64,000 bases of DNA from Naegleria gruberi (taxonomy: Eukaryota): assembly GCA_000004985.1 (NCBI GenBank), contig GG738921.1; one strand, given 5' to 3'. Made by a program: the position numbers and the translations under genes. Shown here piece by piece: positions 13,841-61,375 of this stretch. Position 1 is the stretch's first letter; each line of letters begins with the position of its first letter. The notes below the pieces were generated by a model. The model saw only the letters and a list, made by a program, of their open reading frames with translations. It was not told where the DNA came from and ran no database searches.

Positions 13841-16716
13841 ATGGCAAACTCCTTTTCTTTCATCTTGTTTGCCATCTTGGTTTTGAATTGGGCCTTGTTA
13901 GCCAATTGTAATTTGACTTTTTCACAACAAACATTCAACACTCTCCTCAACTCAACCCAAACTTCAACTCTATCACTGACAATGTACATGGGAGGTGGAA
14001 CAACCATCAAAAACAGTAACAACAGCACATGTGGAATGTCTGTGGATAATCCATGTACAAACTTTAATCAATTATTATTAACTTTTAATTGGACACTCTT
14101 TAGTCAATTTGAGAATTTCACAAAAGCAACATCGGCAGGTGAAAGAAACGTTCACTTGAAGATACTGATACTTCCAGATGGCAGTATTTTCTGTCCTATC
14201 AATCCAGTTAATTTATCTCCTTCAATGAATTATCATTTAGAATTTACGAAACTAGTCGAATCATCAACAATAACACCCATCTTGACCTGCCTCAACACAC
14301 AAGATGGAAATGGCATTTCCATTCCTNNNNNNNNNNNNNNNNNNNNNNNNNNNNNNNNNNNNNNNNNNNNNNNNNNNNNNNNNNNNNNNNNNNNNNNNNN
14401 NNNNNNNNNNNNNNNNNNNNNNNNNNNNNNNNNNNNNNNNNNNNNNNNNNNNNNNNNNNNNNNNNNNNNNNNNNNNNNNNNNNNNNNNNNNNNNNNNNNN
14501 NNNNNNNNNNNNNNNNNNNNNNNNNNNNNNNNNNNNNNNNNNNNNNNNNNNNNNNNNNNNNNNNNNNNNNNNNNNNNNNNNNNNNNNNNNNNNNNNNNNN
14601 NNNNNNNNNNNNNNNNNNNNNNNNNNNNNNNNNNNNNNNNNNNNNNNNNNNNNNNNNNNNNNNNNNNNNNNNNNNNNNNNNNNNNNNNNNNNNNNNNNNN
14701 NNNNNNNNNNNNNNNNNNNNNNNNNNNNNNNNNNNNNNNNNNNNNNNNNNNNNNNNNNNNNNNNNNNNNNNNNNNNNNNNNNNNNNNNNNNNNNNNNNNN
14801 NNNNNNNNNNNNNNNNNNNNNNNNNNNNNNNNNNNNNNNNNNNNNNNNNNNNNNNNNNNNNNNNNNNNNNNNNNNNNNNNNNNNNNNNNNNNNNNNNNNN
14901 NNNNNNNNNNNNNNNNNNNNNNNNNNNNNNNNNNNNNNNNNNNNNNNNNNNNNNNNNNNNNNNNNNNNNNNNNNNNNNNNNNNNNNNNNNNNNNNNNNNN
15001 NNNNNNNNNNNNNNNNNNNNNNNNNNNNNNNNNNNNNNNNNNNNNNNNNNNNNNNNNNNNNNNNNNNNNNNNNNNNNNNNNNNNNNNNNNNNNNNNNNNN
15101 NNNNNNNNNNNNNNNNNNNNNNNNNNNNNNNNNNNNNNNNNNNNNNNNNNNNNNNNNNNNNNNNNNNNNNNNNNNNNNNNNNNNNNNNNNNNNNNNNNNN
15201 NNNNNNNNNNNNNNNNNNNNNNNNNNNNNNNNNNNNNNNNNNNNNNNNNNNNNNNNNNNNNNNNNNNNNNNNNNNNNNNNNNNNNNNNNNNNNNNNNNNN
15301 NNNNNNNNNNNNNNNNNNNNNNNNNNNNNNNNNNNNNNNNNNNNNNNNNNNNNNNNNNNNNNNNNNNNNNNNNNNNNNNNNNNNNNNNNNNNNNNNNNNN
15401 NNNNNNNNNNNNNNNNNNNNNNNNNNNNNNNNNNNNNNNNNNNNNNNNNNNNNNNNNNNNNNNNNNNNNNNNNNNNNNNNNNNNNNNNNNNNNNNNNNNN
15501 NNNNNNNNNNNNNNNNNNNNTTGGAATAGCATTAGGTTTTGGAATATTCTTTGTGTGGAAAATTGTAAAGAAATTGAGAAAACTGAAAAGTAAGGAGAAG
15601 GCAGAGAAACAAATTGAAGAAAAACTTTTAGACAAGCGACTTATTTTCAATATGAATGACGAGGAGGATGAATATTATGAGGGCTCCACACCAAATATTG
15701 AAAGAAGCAAATCATCTTATGGGAAAGTATCTGAAAAGGAGTTAGTTTCTTCATTGATTGACAGTGAAAAGAAGAAATCAAAACATTCTTTCAGTTTTTC
15801 ATCCTCTTACATTATTCCAATTGAAGACATATCAATTATTAAAAAGATTGGAGAAGGAGGCGCAGCTAATGTATATTATGGTACATGGACCAATATTAAA
15901 GTGGCTATCAAGTCACTCAAGATTGACAGTTTTGATGATGATTTTGAGAATGAAGCAGCCATCCTCAGTTTAATTAGACATCCAAACATTCTGACATTCT
16001 ATGGAGTATGTTTGACTGATAAGAGTCGATATATTGTGACTGAATATATGGAAAATGGCTCTCTAGACAGGTATATATTTTTGAATAAGAACAGAGCATT
16101 GAATATTGACCTATTCAAATCAAATATTGGAATTTTGTGTGGAATTGTGGATGGTATGCAATATTTACACTCTCTTAAACCTTCAATTATTCACAGAGAT
16201 TTGAAATCGAGTAATATATTGTTGGACGAAAGAAATACTCCAAAAGTTTCTGATTTTGGTCTTGTTAAAGTATTGGGAAACAATACAATCAGTCAAATTA
16301 CAAAAGGAATTGGTACAGTGTATTATTTAGCTCCAGAAACATTCATTGCTGAACATCAAATTGAAAATAAGGAAGAGGCAACCAAGTTGGACATTTACAG
16401 TTTTGCAATAATCATGTGGGAATTATTCTTTCGAATGAGTCCTTATCATCATGTGAAAAATCCATTCAAAGTGCCTCAAATGGTTGTCAATGGAGAAAGA
16501 CCTCAAATTCCCTTCAATATTGAAAATGATACGGAAATCAAAGAATGGCTTTCAATTCAAGCATTGGAAATTTCATCGTCTGACAATTCTTTCATTAATG
16601 GTATTAAGAAATACTTCTCACTCATTCTCCAATGTTGGAATCAAAATCCATTACAAAGACCTACATTCCTGACAATTAGAAGAGAATTGGATGAGATTTA
16701 CAATCTAATCGGTTGA
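13841..16716 (+). CDS. Receptor-like TKL-family Ser/Thr kinase (signal peptide, ectodomain, TM, kinase), interrupted by an assembly gap
   Basis: ATG at 13841 follows an A-run. The start MANSFSFILFAILVLNWALLANC is signal-peptide-like, and the ectodomain is rich in N-glycosylation sites up to the gap. After the gap the frame from 15523 reads GIALGFGIFFVW (TM) then KIVKKLRKLK, followed by a kinase domain with IGEGGAANVYYG, VAIKSLK, HRDLKSSNILLD, SDFGL and YYLAPE, to the stop at 16716. Confidence 0.8.
14327..15520. other. Assembly gap (1194 N)
   Basis: A run of N in the sequence. It lies inside the receptor-kinase gene. Confidence 1.
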
Positions 16717-36511: not shown

Positions 36512-37492
36512 ATGGGTAATGTCATTCCTGTTAACACTCTCTTCTTGGGTATCGATGGAGCTGGTAAAGTAAGTAACATGAAATCTTTACATTTCGTCTA
36601 ATGTGTAAACTAATGTTTAAACTAATGTGTGTAAACTAAACTTTAGACCACCATCATCAACACTGGTATGAACAAATTCAAACAATTAAAACAAGAGCAA
36701 ATTGATGCTATACAACCAACTTTGGGACATGATTCAAAGAGATTTACAGTGGAAGGAGTTGAATTTATTTCATGGGATGTAAGTATTTGAAGAATTGAAC
36801 AAGTTTTCTAATAGTAGAAATTGTCATTGATTGAATGGTGTTGTTGTTTTGTTCATTGACTGCTCCAATAACAATAATAATAACAAATGTCATGTTGACG
36901 TGTAAAAAACTCGAAATCTTTGGATGATTTGAAAAAATATTAAAAAATTCGTGATGATATGAAAAATGGATTCGATTCTTGGCCATGACATGAATTTTTC
37001 TCACTATTTCTCACCACCATTGACAATACCACAACAACACATTGAACAATTCAATCACGACCACTTTGTTGCTTCCTATAGTTCCCTGGCAAGGAACAAC
37101 TTCGTTCCACATGGACTTCCTACTATAAACATGCTCAAGTCATTGTCTTTGTTGTTGACAGCTCTGATAGTGATGAACGTTTAGAAGAAGTTAAGGAAAT
37201 TCTCCACTCCATCATTCAAAATGTCCAATTACGTGAATGTTTGTTGTTGATTTTGGGTAACAAACAAGATTTGAATTCCACTAGAAATTTGGATAAATTG
37301 AAGGATACTCTCGGATTAGGAGGTAATTTAAGTGGATTACGTGATCGTACTTGGAAGATACTTACTTGTACTGCCAAAACTGGAGATGGTTTGGAAGATG
37401 CTTTCAAATGGTTGTCAACTGAAACAATGAAGGCCTATAAAAAGAGAGAAAGCAAGAAGAAGGAAGAAAAGAAGGAAGAAACTAAAAAATAA
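36512..37492 (+). CDS. Arf/Arl-family small GTPase with an atypical switch II (199 aa, 3 exons)
   Basis: Exons are 36512-36568 / 36647-36778 / 37082-37492, with introns of 78 and 303 nt in phase. MGN start. G1 is GIDGAGKT, G2 is PTLG, G3 is WD|FPGKEQLR (canonical WDVGGQ), G4 is GNKQD and G5 is TCTAKTGDG. Lys/Glu-rich tail. Confidence 0.8.
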
Positions 37493-37880: not shown

Positions 37881-38988
37881 ATGTCTGCTCAATCCATTAG
37901 CTTTTCCAAGTATACAAAATTCGACAATCACTACAGAAAACAATACGTCGAATCGATCAAGACCCAAAATGAAGAGATGAGCAAGAAATTAAATCATCCA
38001 ATGGAATGGTATTGCTCCGAGAAGGTTCATGGTTGTAATTTGAGCTTTATTGTTGATAGAGTAAGGCAATCAGAGTATAAAGTAGAGGTTGCTAATCGTT
38101 CATGTGTTCTTTCACAATCATCAATGAGCTTTTATCCAAAAACAATTGAACAGTTGGAGAAAAAGTTTGAGTGGTGAATTGAATGAACAATTGAAATTGA
38201 AGAGTGTTCAAATTTATGGTGAATTATTTGGTGGATTATTCCCAAATAAGAAACCTTCAGATGCTAAGGCAATTCAAAGTGGAATTCACTATTGTCCACA
38301 TCATGATTTTTATGCTTTTGATGTTCTTCTCGGATTTGAGAATGGAAAACAATCTTGGGCTGTTTTTAACAATGTTGATCCATTGTTGGATGAGTGTGGA
38401 TTCAAAGTGAGAGCTCAACCATTGTTTAAGGGAACTTTGGACGAATGTTTGGAGTTTGATGTTAAATTTAACACTAAATTACCAGAAACTTTCTATCCAG
38501 AAATTGTAAAGGAAAGAAATGCTTCCTGGAAGGATTTGGATAATATTTGTGAAGGTGTTGTCATCAAACCAACCAAGTACAATATCTTTGTGGAAACTGA
38601 AAGAGCTGTAATCAAGAAGAAGAATGAAAAATTCTTGGAAACTGAAGCTAGTGATAAACCACAACAACCAGTGAAAAAGGAAAAGGGTGACTCTGAAGAG
38701 CTAGTTCAGGTATGGAATGAACTCTCACGATACATTACCTCCAATCGTTTGGATAATGTTCTCTCAAAGATTGGAAACCTCACCAAGAGTAACATGTTCC
38801 CAGTTATGAAGGAATTCTCAAATGATGCCCTCGAAGAATTTAAATTAGATTTGGAACGTGGTGCTTTGGAAAATTGTAAACCAGTTTCTTCACTTTCAAG
38901 TGAAGATCAGAAAAAGCTCACTAAAAAGATCAATGATGCTTGTATGGTTTTAATTAAGGAACAATTAAACAAACCATCATCAGAATAA
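37881..38988 (+). CDS. T4 Rnl2 / kinetoplastid REL-type ATP-dependent RNA ligase, with a frame break between motifs I and III
   Basis: Nucleotidyltransferase motifs: I SEKVHGCNLSF, III VQIYGELFGG, IIIa HDFYAFDVL, IV CEGVVIKP, V AVIKKKNEKF. There is a helical C-terminal domain (RYITSNRLDNVLSKIG). ORFs 37881-38177 and 38146-38988 are in different frames, and the span is 1108 nt. Confidence 0.8.
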
Positions 38989-39098
38989 AGTGCAAGTTGA
39001 CTATTTCGAATAAAAGTGGTGTTACTGAAATAATTTACAATTTTTTGTTTTTTGAATACAAATTGCAATTTATTGATTATTTACCATACAATAACCAT

Positions 39099-39386
39099 TC
39101 AATAATTACGGTGTTTACCCTCATAGGTATGATAAACCTCTACTCTGTCTTGTTGTGGTACAGTATCGCTTCTTTTTTGATGGTCTGGAAAGTTTTGTAG
39201 GTGTTGTCTTAAATTGCCATGAATGTTACCAGTGGCAGCACACTTATGTCCTTGTGGGGTTTGACTACTAATGGGGTTATTTTGAGATTTAATTTGACTA
39301 CTTGTTTGGGAGTTATTTTGAGATTTAATTTGGCTACTTGTTTGGGAGTTATTTTGGCGACCAGTTTGGGATTTATGTTGAGTCAT
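39099..39386 (-). CDS. Small Ser/Gln/Asn-rich protein containing a 12-aa tandem repeat
   Basis: 95-aa ORF with ATG at 39386. NSQTSSQIKSQN occurs twice, encoded by a 36-nt tandem repeat. No homology recognised, so coding status is uncertain. Confidence 0.35.
   Translation of the reverse strand: MTQHKSQTGRQNNSQTSSQIKSQNNSQTSSQIKSQNNPISSQTPQGHKCAATGNIHGNLRQHLQNFPDHQKRSDTVPQQDRVEVYHTYEGKHRNY
39276..39357. repeat. 36-nt tandem repeat, about 2.3 copies
   Basis: GTTATTTTGAGATTTAATTTGACTACTTGTTTGGGA at 39276-39311 is repeated at 39312-39347 with one A>G change. A third partial copy starts at 39348. Confidence 0.9.
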
Positions 39387-39624
39387 TTTGTTTCTGGCTT
39401 GTTTTATTTATTTTAACATACCACGTTTAACATCAAAACTTTTATTATAAAGAACTTTTGAGCCAAAAGGGAGACTTCATTTTTGGACAATTTCTTAATT
39501 TATGAAATTACTAGCTCAAGAGAAGCCCAAGACGAGTCAAGGATTTATTTGGTGTTGGTGAGCCTTTAAATTGAACCAATGACAATAAGGATATTGTTAA
39601 GAAATTTTAAAAAATCAGAAAAAA

Positions 39625-41601: not shown

Positions 41602-42484
41602 TTAAACTTTATTATCAGCTCCGTAAGGTTGATTTGGTTGGGCATAATAATTAGGTTGTGGATCCACAACTCCTGGTTGACCATATCCTTGATTAGCAGT
41701 AGGATATGGTTGACCATAACCACCTTGTGGTTGTCCATAGCTTTGATTAGGATTATAAGGTTGAGCTGTTTGATTTGGATTATACGGTTGACCATAACCT
41801 GGTTGACCATAAACCTCTGATGATGGATTGTAATAAGGTTGTTGTTGACCTACTACTGGTGGTTGTGTTTGATTTGAATAATAAGGAGTTGAAGTGTAAC
41901 CACCTGGTTGTTGAACTGCCAAATTTGGTTGCATTTGGCCAACTGTTGTCGTGGTTGATTGAACAGTTGTGGTTGCAACTGGGATTGGAGTGGTGACAGT
42001 TGTGGCAGCTGCCAAATCACTTCTTGACATACCATCTGCGATATTCTTCATGATAATGAACATTCGAATACCTGCAATGACGGACGAAATTCCAGCAATG
42101 ATCAATACAATGCCAATAACACCCAAAACAATTGGAGTGGTAATTCCAGAGCATGATGTGCTGGAATTGGTTGTCACAGCAAGACATGCTATAATGAATA
42201 CAAAGTTTAGTCAAGTTTCGAATAATTTCAAAAATTGATTATTAGAAACAAGATAATGAATTAGTTTTCAACAGATCAACAAGAAACCTACCTGCATACA
42301 ATGCACCAACGGCAATCGCAGCAATTCCTAGAGCAATACCAATCAAGATGGAAACAACTCCTGAGATAATTGTGGCAAGTGGTTTAGTTCTTCTGTTTCC
42401 AATAACTATTCCTCCTCCTACGTGATGATTTACATGATGATGGTGATGATGACCGTGTCGTCCATGGTGATGGTGGTGAGCCAT
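41602..42484 (-). CDS. Two-TM protein with an N-terminal His tract and a Q/P/G/Y-rich C-terminal tail (259 aa, 2 exons)
   Basis: Exons are 42484-42292 / 42188-41602, with a 103-nt GTAGGT...TAG intron in phase 1. The start is MAHHHHHGRHGHHHHHHVNHH. The TM helices are ATIISGVVSILIGIALGIAAIAVGALYA and IVLGVIGIVLIIAGISSVIAGI. The tail has YGQP / NPNQ repeats. Confidence 0.65.
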
Positions 42485-60404: not shown

Positions 60405-61375
60405 ATGCCACAACATGTCCATCATCACTCCCTCTCACCTTCAAGACCAGTCGTCGTTATTGATAATGGCTCGGGAATGATTAAGGTAGGATTTTCCTGT
60501 AGTGATTCTCCCAGAGCCATATTTCCAACAATAGTAGGGCATAAAAAAGAGTCATCAGATCAAAAGAAGGAAACAACCAACAATGATCTCAATAGTATCG
60601 GATCATCATTTGTTGGAGAGATGGCAATAGCTCATCGAGAATTATTGGACATAAAAAGTCCCATGGAAAATGGAATAATTTCAAATTTTGATGATATGGA
60701 AAAGATTTGTTATCATCTCTATCCGGAGTTCTTGTCACAGAACCAAGTTAGAATCCAAAGTTGGTGAGAGAAAAAACAACAGAAATATTTTTTGAAAAGT
60801 TTAAGGCCAATCAGTGATGGGACTTTGTTCGAGTGCCAGATCAGATGGTGTTGTTTTGGATGCTGGTTATACGAAATCATATGCTGTTCCAATTCTTGAA
60901 GGAATTGCATTGCCACATGCCATTCAGGTGATGNNNNNNNNNNNNNNNNNNNNNNNNNNNNNNNNNNNNNNNNNNNNNNNNNNTTCACAAAGAGGAGGTT
61001 TGAATTGTCAGATGGAAGCAAAGTGAATTTTGGAGAGGAATTAATGTCATGTCCAGAAGCTCTATTCAACCCACAGTTAATCAAAGAAGGAGAAGGAATT
61101 CACAAGATTCTCGTCAATTCCATTTTCAATTCAAATGCAGAAATCACAAGACAACTCTTTGCCAATATTGTCCTTGTCGGTGTCTCAACAATGTTTGAAG
61201 GTTTTCCCAATCATTGAATTGGCTCCTCTCTCTGTAAAAGTGAAAATCCTTTCATTCCCCGAAAGAAAACTCTTCCTGGTTTGGAGGTTCAATTACGAGC
61301 TCTCTTTCAGAATTCCACAATATGGCCATTCACAAAAAGGAATATGAAGAAGTTGGACCTAGAATTGTAATGTAG
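60405..61375 (+). pseudogene. Actin-related protein gene with an in-frame stop, at least 4 frame changes and an internal gap (probable pseudogene)
   Basis: Actin-colinear pieces lie in different frames: VVIDNGSGMIKVGF ... FPTIVG (from 60405); VLVTEPS*NPKLVREKTTEIFFEKF (TAG at 60749-60751); DGVVLDAGYTKSYAVPILEGIALPHAI; [gap]; FELSDGSKVNFGEELMSCPEALFNP ... LVGVSTMFEGF; [18 protein letters not shown]; [33 protein letters not shown]. Confidence 0.6.
60934..60983. other. Assembly gap (50 N)
   Basis: A run of N inside the actin-related locus. Confidence 1.

What the first reader, a model, noticed from the sequence alone, without database searches (positions are those of the whole stretch)
37881..38988. 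T4 Rnl2 / RNA-editing-ligase-type RNA ligase in this eukaryote
All five nucleotidyltransferase motifs are present in the Rnl2 order and spelling (KVHGCN, YGELFGG, FYAFDV, EGVVIKP, IKKKNEKF), plus the Rnl2-style helical C-domain. This family is best known from phage T4, kinetoplastid editosomes, some viruses and archaea. Its role in a free-living amoebozoan is unclear; nick-sealing RNA repair or tRNA/ncRNA processing are possibilities. No signal or targeting sequence is evident at the N-terminus.
Basis: partly seen in the sequence, partly recalled or inferred. Interest (0 to 1): 0.5.

Follow-up and report, generated by a model that had tools for sequence, protein, structure and literature searches.

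The report
Known Naegleria Rnl2 ligase gene, frame-broken
This is one of the five T4-Rnl2-type RNA ligase genes already listed for the amoeboflagellate Naegleria gruberi, but in this sequence a 68-base deletion breaks its reading frame, and the public gene model hides the break with an invented intron.

Summary
The Rnl2 call is right. Pfam RNA_ligase and T4_Rnl2_C (E=7e-28), NCBIfam TIGR02307, PDB sequence search and Foldseek all put T4 RNA ligase 2 first.

Three corrections:
1. The organism is Naegleria gruberi, a heterolobosean (Discoba), not an amoebozoan.
2. The gene is already known. It is XP_002669886.1, one of five N. gruberi Rnl2-family members listed by Unciuleac & Shuman 2015. It is listed there but not characterised.
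3. Region 37881-38988 is not one ORF. It is 1108 nt long. Motif I lies in one frame and motifs III-V plus the C-domain lie in the +1 frame.

A 99%-identical contig and an 88%-identical sister-species contig both carry 68 extra nt at 38166-38169, between two TTTG. These 68 nt encode 22 conserved residues of the helix after motif Ia. As written, the window gives a 98-aa stub. The RefSeq model restores the frame with a non-conserved 79-nt "intron" that deletes motif Ia.

dN/dS of 0.13 against the intact relative suggests the break is recent, or an assembly or cloning artefact.

The finding is ordinary, apart from the annotation correction.

The parts
37881..38177 (+). 5' part of the Rnl2 gene in frame A. 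Codons 1-96 are authentic: ATG at 37881, motif I KVHGCN with the Lys48 nucleophile at 38022-38039, and motif Ia EVANRS at 38085-38102. Two out-of-frame codons and a premature TGA (38175-38177) follow.
   Evidence: ORF list and translation. Pfam RNA_ligase profile positions 2-33. TIGR02307 profile positions 1-66. Motif coordinates.
38166..38169 (+). Deletion junction. A single TTTG stands where relatives have TTTG, 64 further nt, then a second TTTG. 68 nt are missing. They encode 22 residues, GPMSIQLFESIERVLPKWAELD in L001. The loss shifts the frame by +1.
   Evidence: blastn HSPs overlap by 4 nt in the window and lie 68 nt apart in L001. Three-way DNA alignment A2. Protein alignment A1 shows the segment in all Naegleria, Acrasis and bacterial homologues.
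38167..38988 (+). 3' part of the gene in frame B, 273 codons plus TAA at 38986-38988. It holds motif III YGELFGG (38215-38235), motif IIIa FYAFDV (38308-38325), motif IV EGVVIKP (38551-38571), motif V IKKKNEKF (38611-38634), a linker, and the C-terminal helical domain.
   Evidence: Pfam RNA_ligase profile positions 44-170, E=1.1e-12. TIGR02307 profile positions 91-295, E=1.1e-32.
38686..38946 (+). Rnl2 signature C-terminal all-helical domain (Pfam PF18043 T4_Rnl2_C). It includes the counterparts of T4 Rnl2 Arg266 (in YITSNRLDNVLSKIG, 38731-38775) and Asp292 (in SNDALEEF, 38818-38841).
   Evidence: Pfam E=7.2e-28, residues 181-267 of the 280-aa ORF. Residue mapping to T4 Rnl2. Four helices in the AF2 model of the intact relative. 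Full-length Foldseek alignment to 2hvr/2hvq.
38075..38153 (+). The 79-nt GT..AG 'intron' of the public gene model XP_002669886.1/EFC37142.1. I judge it an artefact of gene modelling. It restores the frame but removes EYKVEVANRS...TIEQLE, which includes motif Ia.
   Evidence: Removing 38075-38153 reproduces P0001 exactly. The stretch is in-frame, conserved coding sequence in L001 and L002, and L002 has no GT at the donor position. It holds Arg73, the counterpart of T4 Arg55, which is invariant in the family.

Best explanation
The locus is the Naegleria gruberi gene annotated as XP_002669886.1. It is a two-domain ATP-dependent RNA ligase of the T4 Rnl2 family.

In its intact form (391 aa in a 99%-identical strain, 400 aa in a sister species) it should work by the classical three-step ligase pathway. 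First, Lys48 of KVHGCN attacks ATP to form ligase-AMP. Second, AMP is passed to the 5'-phosphate of a nick in duplex RNA or an RNA:DNA hybrid; by analogy with T4 Rnl2, this step needs the C-terminal helical domain. Third, the RNA 3'-OH attacks to seal the nick. This mechanism is inferred from homology and from conservation of the T4 Rnl2 catalytic residues. It has not been shown for this protein.

In the sequence as given, a 68-nt deletion flanked by TTTG microhomology at 38166-38169 removes 22 residues of the helix after motif Ia and shifts the frame. The gene can encode only a 98-aa stub carrying motif I. It can also encode a 3' ORF that lacks the lysine nucleophile and has no ATG ahead of its motifs. 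I take this copy to be a recently inactivated allele. With four other Rnl2 paralogues in the genome, the loss would be tolerated.
For: Family:
- Pfam PF09414 and PF18043 (E=7e-28).
- TIGR02307 'RNA ligase, Rnl2 family' is the top NCBIfam hit. It matches end to end on the intact relative at E=1e-40.
- T4 Rnl2 is the best PDB sequence hit, E=2.4e-17.
- The AF2 model of intact relative P0003 (pLDDT 90) best matches full-length T4 Rnl2, E=5.9e-19.
- T4-like phage rnlB genes are 28-32% identical over 87-96% of the length.
- Counterparts of T4 E34, K35, H37, N40, R55, F65, E99, F119, D120, E204, K209, K225, K227, R266 and D292 are all conserved.

Identity:
- P0001 = XP_002669886.1, named as an Rnl2 member in PMC4408790.

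Deletion:
- define it.
- The missing segment is present in N. lovaniensis, N. fowleri, Acrasis and bacterial homologues.
- It lies inside the long helix at residues 57-88 of the model.

Recent break:
- dN/dS is 0.13 against L002 on both sides of the junction.
- There are 8 synonymous, 3 non-synonymous and 1 nonsense differences against L001.

Eukaryotic context:
- The neighbours are an intron-split Arf GTPase, LRR, F-box/LRR and RCC1-like genes.
Against: I could not find an independent copy of this strain's sequence. Exact look-ups and two metagenome scans found nothing. The deletion could therefore be a cloning or assembly artefact of the reference, or one allele of a heterozygous locus.

The low dN/dS means there is no signature of long-term decay.

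No expression data or enzymatic data were available.

The TIGR02307 score (140 bits) is below NCBI's equivalog cut-off of 197.
Confidence: 0.6

Rival explanations
1. The gene is intact and functional in the organism. The 68-nt gap is an artefact of the reference assembly, such as a deletion in a sequencing clone or a consensus error. Alternatively it is only one of two alleles, with the other intact.
For: Strong purifying selection up to the present: dN/dS 0.13 against L002, and 8 synonymous to 3 non-synonymous differences against L001. Every catalytic residue is intact on both sides of the junction. The window comes from a draft assembly with N runs. Deletions between short direct repeats also arise in E. 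coli clones (general knowledge).
Against: No second sequence of this strain was found to show the intact version. The only N. gruberi protein of this orthologue group in the 5.8-billion-protein database is the frame-patched model P0001. Closely related copies also carry disruptions: a TAG in L001 and several indels in L163. Loss of this gene is therefore plausible in this lineage.
Confidence: 0.3
2. The public model is right. A 79-nt intron (38075-38153) is spliced out, giving the 342-aa protein XP_002669886.1, which acts as a ligase.
For: The stretch has GT..AG ends, and removing it restores the frame exactly.
Against: In L001 and L002 the same stretch is uninterrupted, conserved coding sequence, and splicing there would break the frame. 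L002 has no GT at the donor position. The 'intron' removes motif Ia, including the family-invariant Arg73 (the T4 Arg55 counterpart), and a core beta-strand. The 22 deleted helix residues would still be missing as well.
Confidence: 0.05
3. The gene is a recent horizontal acquisition from a phage, giant virus or bacterium, or it is contaminating non-eukaryotic DNA.
For: The nearest non-heterolobosean relatives are Bacteroidales and other bacteria, and large viral contigs, at about 30-34% identity. Rnl2 has been reported as laterally acquired in ciliates (PMC13198582).
Against: The flanking genes are typical eukaryotic genes. GC content matches the window. Homologues exist in N. lovaniensis, N. 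fowleri and Acrasis kona, on contigs of 676 kb and 716 kb in the two Naegleria species. In the NJ tree the Naegleria orthologues group at 98% and all Heterolobosea at 66%, with no supported bacterial or viral sister. Any transfer would therefore be ancient, before Naegleria and Acrasis diverged.
Confidence: 0.04

Closest known systems
Bacteriophage T4 RNA ligase 2 (Rnl2, gene rnlB; PDB 2HVQ/2HVR/1S68)
   Same: Same two-domain architecture: an N-terminal nucleotidyltransferase domain with motifs I, Ia, III, IIIa, IV and V, plus the helical T4_Rnl2_C domain. It is the best sequence and fold match. All the T4 catalytic and C-domain residues I checked are conserved.
   Different: About 22-25% identity only. 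The Naegleria proteins are 391-437 aa against 334 aa, with a longer helix/insert between motifs Ia and III. The host is a cellular eukaryote. The TIGR02307 score is below the equivalog cut-off. The copy in this window is frame-broken.
The other N. gruberi Rnl2-family paralogues (XP_002672691.1 = P0013, XP_002679917.1, XP_002679286.1, XP_002676530.1; list in PMC4408790)
   Same: Same organism and same family. P0013 carries both Pfam domains and groups with the window gene's clade in the NJ tree at 66% bootstrap.
   Different: P0013 is only about 30-35% identical. I did not examine the other paralogues. None has been characterised biochemically as far as I found.
Kinetoplastid RNA-editing ligases REL1/REL2 (PDB 1XDN)
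   Same: Same Rnl2-type nucleotidyltransferase domain (E=1e-7 by sequence; Foldseek E=1.9e-15, TM 0.70 on the target). The host also belongs to Discoba.
   Different: The match covers the catalytic domain only. REL1 never grouped with the heterolobosean sequences in bootstraps (0%). From my own knowledge, RELs lack the T4_Rnl2_C domain, are mitochondrial, and work within the editosome. This protein has no N-terminal extension.
NgrRnl, the characterised Rnl5-family nick-sealing ligase of N. gruberi (PDB 5COT)
   Same: Same organism and the same expected chemistry: ATP-dependent sealing of nicks with an RNA 3'-OH strand (PMC4408790).
   Different: It is a different family. Rnl5 has an N-terminal domain and no C-terminal domain. 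The fold match is weak and limited to the NTase core (E about 2e-5).

Membership tests
Rnl2 family of ATP-dependent RNA ligases (T4 Rnl2 type) | Nucleotidyltransferase domain with motifs I (KxHGxN, lysine nucleophile), Ia, III, IIIa, IV and V in order | tested here: met
   All motifs are located. Pfam PF09414 hits both halves. The motifs are spread over two reading frames in this window.
Rnl2 family of ATP-dependent RNA ligases (T4 Rnl2 type) | Signature C-terminal all-helical domain (Pfam PF18043 T4_Rnl2_C) | tested here: met
   E=7.2e-28, 97 bits against a cut-off of 27. The AF2 model of relative P0003 has four C-terminal helices, and the alignment to full-length 2hvr spans 364 columns.
Rnl2 family of ATP-dependent RNA ligases (T4 Rnl2 type) | Closer to Rnl2 than to Rnl1, Rnl3, Rnl5, DNA ligases or capping enzymes | tested here: met
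   Foldseek E-values: Rnl2 6e-19, Rnl3 3e-6, Rnl5 2e-5, Trl1 (Rnl1-like) 3e-5, DNA ligases 5e-4 or weaker, capping enzymes about 2e-2. No other ligase Pfam family hits at E<=1.
Rnl2 family of ATP-dependent RNA ligases (T4 Rnl2 type) | Residues essential in T4 Rnl2 are conserved: K35, H37, R55, E99, F119, D120, E204, K225, K227 and C-domain R266, D292 (list recalled from the Shuman laboratory's mutational studies, not re-read here) | tested here: met
   All are identical in L001 and L002, and in the window wherever the window has sequence. They are invariant or nearly invariant across 56 homologues.
Rnl2 family of ATP-dependent RNA ligases (T4 Rnl2 type) | NCBIfam TIGR02307 equivalog cut-off (197 bits) | tested here: not met
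   TIGR02307 is the top hit and matches end to end (profile positions 1-316 of 326), but at 140 bits for the intact relative and 137 bits for P0001. The model is tuned to phage and bacterial members, so this argues against 'equivalog of T4 Rnl2', not against family membership.
Rnl2 family of ATP-dependent RNA ligases (T4 Rnl2 type) | An uninterrupted ORF able to encode the enzyme | tested here: not met
   A 68-nt deletion at 38166-38169 and a premature TGA at 38175-38177.
Rnl2 family of ATP-dependent RNA ligases (T4 Rnl2 type) | ATP-dependent self-adenylylation and sealing of 3'-OH(RNA)/5'-PO4 nicks in duplexes | not testable with these tools
   This needs recombinant protein. No biochemical report for this protein was found.
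Kinetoplastid RNA-editing ligases (REL1/REL2) | Specific phylogenetic affinity to REL1/REL2 | tested here: not met
   The REL1 catalytic domain grouped with the Heterolobosea in 0 of 200 bootstraps. The sequence E-value is 1e-7 against 2e-17 for T4 Rnl2. Caveats: NJ method, a partial REL1 sequence, and long branches.
   No such Pfam hit at E<=1. Fold matches are 15 or more orders of magnitude weaker than to Rnl2.

The most novel reading that the evidence does not exclude
This Rnl2 lineage may be undergoing recurrent, independent loss within the N. gruberi species complex. Three disruptions were seen: the 68-nt deletion here, a nonsense codon in a 99%-identical strain, and a multiply disrupted copy beside an intact one in a sister species. 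In contrast, N. fowleri and N. lovaniensis keep the gene as a tight head-to-tail pair with an Rnl1-family ligase. That arrangement would suggest an Rnl2-Rnl1 RNA-repair cassette that N. gruberi has dismantled.
Probability: 0.25. Interest if true: 0.35.

Novelty: already known. Interest (0 to 1): 0.2.

Why it matters
The presence of T4-Rnl2-type ligases in Naegleria, and this very accession, were published in 2015, so the main claim adds nothing new.

The practical value is a correction. The reference sequence of this gene is frame-broken, and the RefSeq/UniProt protein (XP_002669886.1 / D2W189, 342 aa) is a modelling artefact lacking motif Ia and part of a core helix. Anyone who clones or models that entry to study Naegleria's unusually large set of RNA-repair ligases would get a dead protein. 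The 391-aa form (L001 with its TAG reverted) or the 400-aa form (L002) is the one to use.

The Rnl2-Rnl1 gene pair in N. fowleri and N. lovaniensis is a small lead for how these ligases might work together.

Tried and rejected
1. A short intron at the frame junction. The only GT..AG there with a length of 3n+1 is 7 nt (GTTTGAG, read), which is far too short. Relatives also show that sequence is missing here, not extra.

2. Programmed +1 frameshifting at TGG-TGA-A. There is no slippery P-site codon, and 22 conserved residues would still be missing.

3. The annotated 79-nt intron. Rejected as a modelling artefact.

4. Contamination or recent HGT. Rejected on the eukaryotic neighbours, the homologues in other Heterolobosea and the tree.

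5. Looking for independent evidence of the deletion in this strain. Exact look-ups of the 98-aa ORF and of P0001 and two metagenome pattern scans all found nothing.

I used P0003 instead, which is the same protein minus 38 N-terminal residues.

7. My first dN/dS run for the window against L001 was wrong, because the internal stop in L001 broke the codon register. I replaced it with a direct codon-by-codon count.

8. A literature search for the T4 Rnl2 essential-residue papers found nothing usable in the library. That residue list rests on my memory.

9. Deep phylogeny. NJ with 200 bootstraps gives no supported sister group for the heterolobosean clade. The origin (vertical or ancient transfer) stays unresolved.

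Full report
**What is in the sequence**

The finding's region, 37881-38988, is 1108 nt long, which is not a multiple of three. The ORF list shows two ORFs:
- ORF 37881-38177 encodes 98 aa starting MSAQSISFSKYTKFDNHY, and ends ...EKKFEW followed by TGA.
- ORF 38146-38988 lies in the +1 frame and encodes 280 aa.

KVHGCN (motif I, 38022-38039) and EVANRS (motif Ia, 38085-38102) are in the first ORF. The second ORF holds YGELFGG (38215-38235), FYAFDV (38308-38325), EGVVIKP (38551-38571), IKKKNEKF (38611-38634) and the C-terminal domain.

**Family**

- Pfam gives RNA_ligase PF09414 on both pieces, covering profile positions 2-33 and 44-170. It gives T4_Rnl2_C PF18043 at E=7.2e-28. No DNA-ligase or capping family appears at E<=1.
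- NCBIfam's best model is TIGR02307 'RNA ligase, Rnl2 family'. The two window ORFs cover profile positions 1-66 and 91-295. The intact relative matches positions 1-316 of 326 at E=1e-40. Its 140 bits fall below the 197-bit equivalog cut-off.
- Against PDB sequences, T4 Rnl2 is first (2hvq, E=2.4e-17) and T. brucei REL1 is next (E=1e-7).
- An AlphaFold model of the closest intact relative, P0003 (pLDDT 90, pTM 0.76), best matches full-length T4 Rnl2 (2hvr, E=5.9e-19). After that come REL1 (1.9e-15), archaeal Rnl3 (3e-6), NgrRnl/Rnl5 (about 2e-5), DNA ligases (5e-4 or weaker) and capping enzymes (about 2e-2).
- T4-like phage rnlB genes are 28-32% identical over 87-96% of the length.
- The counterparts of T4 Rnl2 E34, K35, H37, N40, R55, F65, E99, F119, D120, E204, K209, K225, K227 and the C-domain residues R266 and D292 are all conserved. 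The list of essential residues is from my memory of the Shuman laboratory's work.

**Organism and prior knowledge**

The near-identical database protein P0001 is 'RNA ligase [Naegleria gruberi]', XP_002669886.1 / EFC37142.1 / D2W189. Naegleria belongs to Discoba, Heterolobosea, not Amoebozoa.

[quoted passage not shown] Five of them are Rnl2-family members, listed by accession, and XP_002669886.1 is one of the five. It is the only paper in the library that cites the accession. A Diplonema study also used an N. gruberi Rnl2 as a comparator (PMC4599027). The existence and family of this gene are therefore already known. Its biochemistry is not.

**The break**

- Contig L001, from an ENA metagenome, is 99.2% identical in the coding region and 94% identical in the upstream spacer. 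L002, from a sister Naegleria species, is about 88% identical. Both carry 68 nt that the window lacks.
- In the window a single TTTG (38166-38169) stands where the relatives have TTTG, 64 further nt, then a second TTTG.
- The missing segment encodes GPMSIQLFESIERVLPKWAELD. It has counterparts in N. lovaniensis, N. fowleri, Acrasis kona, the N. gruberi paralogue P0013 and a metagenomic homologue annotated as an Rnl2-family ligase. The deletion is therefore derived.
- In the model it removes residues 68-89 of the long helix (residues 57-88) that follows motif Ia.
- The public model P0001 (342 aa) is reproduced exactly by removing 38075-38153, a 79-nt GT..AG 'intron'. That stretch is conserved in-frame coding sequence in L001 and L002. 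It has no GT donor in L002 and contains the invariant Arg of motif Ia. I conclude the intron is a gene-modelling patch over the frameshift.

**Age of the break**

Nei-Gojobori dN/dS between the window and L002 is 0.13 (dS 0.61). It is 0.13 upstream and 0.12 downstream of the junction. Against L001 there are 8 synonymous, 3 non-synonymous and 1 nonsense differences.

The gene was under purifying selection until very recently. The deletion is therefore either a young null allele, one allele of a heterozygous locus, or an artefact of the reference. I could not find any second sequence of this strain to decide between these.

Related copies are also damaged. L001 has AAG>TAG at the codon equivalent to window 38809-38811. 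L163, from the same sample as the intact L002, has a 10-nt and a 1-nt deletion and EGVVIKP changed to EGDVIKP. This makes a real loss plausible, so I favour it at about 0.6, against 0.3 for an artefact or an intact second allele.

**Context and origin**

- The neighbours are ordinary eukaryotic genes: an intron-split Arf-family GTPase upstream, an LRR protein and an F-box/LRR protein downstream, plus an RCC1-like protein and an oxidoreductase. GC content is uniform at about 0.33.
- Homologues sit on contigs of 676 kb in N. lovaniensis and 716 kb in N. fowleri, and in Acrasis kona.
- The gene immediately upstream of the N. lovaniensis copy has a homologue at window 42189-42013, which is weak microsynteny.
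- Outside Heterolobosea, the nearest relatives are about 30-34% identical. They are mostly Bacteroidales MAGs (344 loci in GTDB genomes) and large viral contigs (76 loci).
- I built an NJ tree of 114 sequences with 200 bootstraps. The Naegleria orthologues group at 98%, adding Acrasis gives 56%, and all Heterolobosea including paralogue P0013 give 66%. No sister group is supported, and REL1 never joins them.
- The gene family is old in Heterolobosea. Whether it came vertically or by ancient transfer is unresolved.

**Mechanism**

By homology, the intact enzyme should proceed in three steps:
1. It self-adenylylates on Lys48.
2. It transfers AMP to the 5'-phosphate at a nick in duplex RNA or an RNA:DNA hybrid. 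By analogy with T4 Rnl2, this step depends on the C-domain.
3. It seals the nick using an RNA 3'-OH.

Only five residues precede the point where the alignment with T4 Rnl2 begins. A mitochondrial presequence is therefore unlikely, and a cytosolic or nuclear RNA-repair role is the default inference.

None of this has been shown experimentally for this protein, and the copy in this window cannot do it as written.

**Verdict**

This is a correct family call on an already published gene, in a mis-identified host, with an overlooked frameshift. Scientific novelty is low. The useful output is the annotation correction.

Noticed in passing
L164 6001-8731 (N. lovaniensis PYSW02000017.1) and L165 6001-8786 (N. 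fowleri VFQX01000030.1): In both species the Rnl2-type gene is followed 72-92 nt downstream, on the same strand, by an Rnl1-family ligase gene (Pfam PF09511, 465-466 aa). This is a tight Rnl2-Rnl1 pair. The N. gruberi window has no Rnl1-like ORF; an LRR gene follows the ligase instead.
   Followed up: partly
L163 648-1879 (ENA ERZ27315067 k141_960899): A second, decayed copy of this ligase gene occurs in the same metagenome sample as the intact L002. It has a 10-nt deletion just before motif V, a 1-nt deletion near the 3' end, and Val to Asp in motif IV (EGDVIKP). The flanks of L163 and L002 share no similarity with each other or with the window.
   Followed up: partly
L001 1397-1399, equivalent to window 38809-38811: The 99%-identical N. 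gruberi-like contig has the 68 nt intact. It carries AAG>TAG at codon 333, which truncates the C-terminal domain. This is a second, independent disruption of the same gene, or a metagenome assembly error.
   Followed up: partly
window 39008-39605: About 600 nt between the ligase stop codon and the next gene are absent from L001, where the two genes lie about 60 nt apart. The segment is unique within the window. It holds a minus-strand 95-aa ORF (39099-39386) with QNNSQTSSQIKS repeats, from a 33-nt tandem repeat at about 39260-39356. It has no Pfam match.
   Followed up: partly
window 36668-36790 and 37241-37492: An Arf-family small GTPase gene lies just upstream of the ligase and is split into at least two exons. 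This is a useful marker that the region is ordinary eukaryotic chromosome.
   Followed up: partly
window 42013-42189 (-), within ORF 41602-42177: This ORF is a homologue (68% identity over 59 aa) of the uncharacterised 217-aa gene that lies immediately upstream of the Rnl2 gene in N. lovaniensis. It suggests rearranged microsynteny around the ligase.
   Followed up: no
window 14327-15520 and 60934-60983: Runs of N mark assembly gaps, so the window comes from a draft scaffold. This is relevant to how far the 68-nt deletion can be trusted.
   Followed up: no
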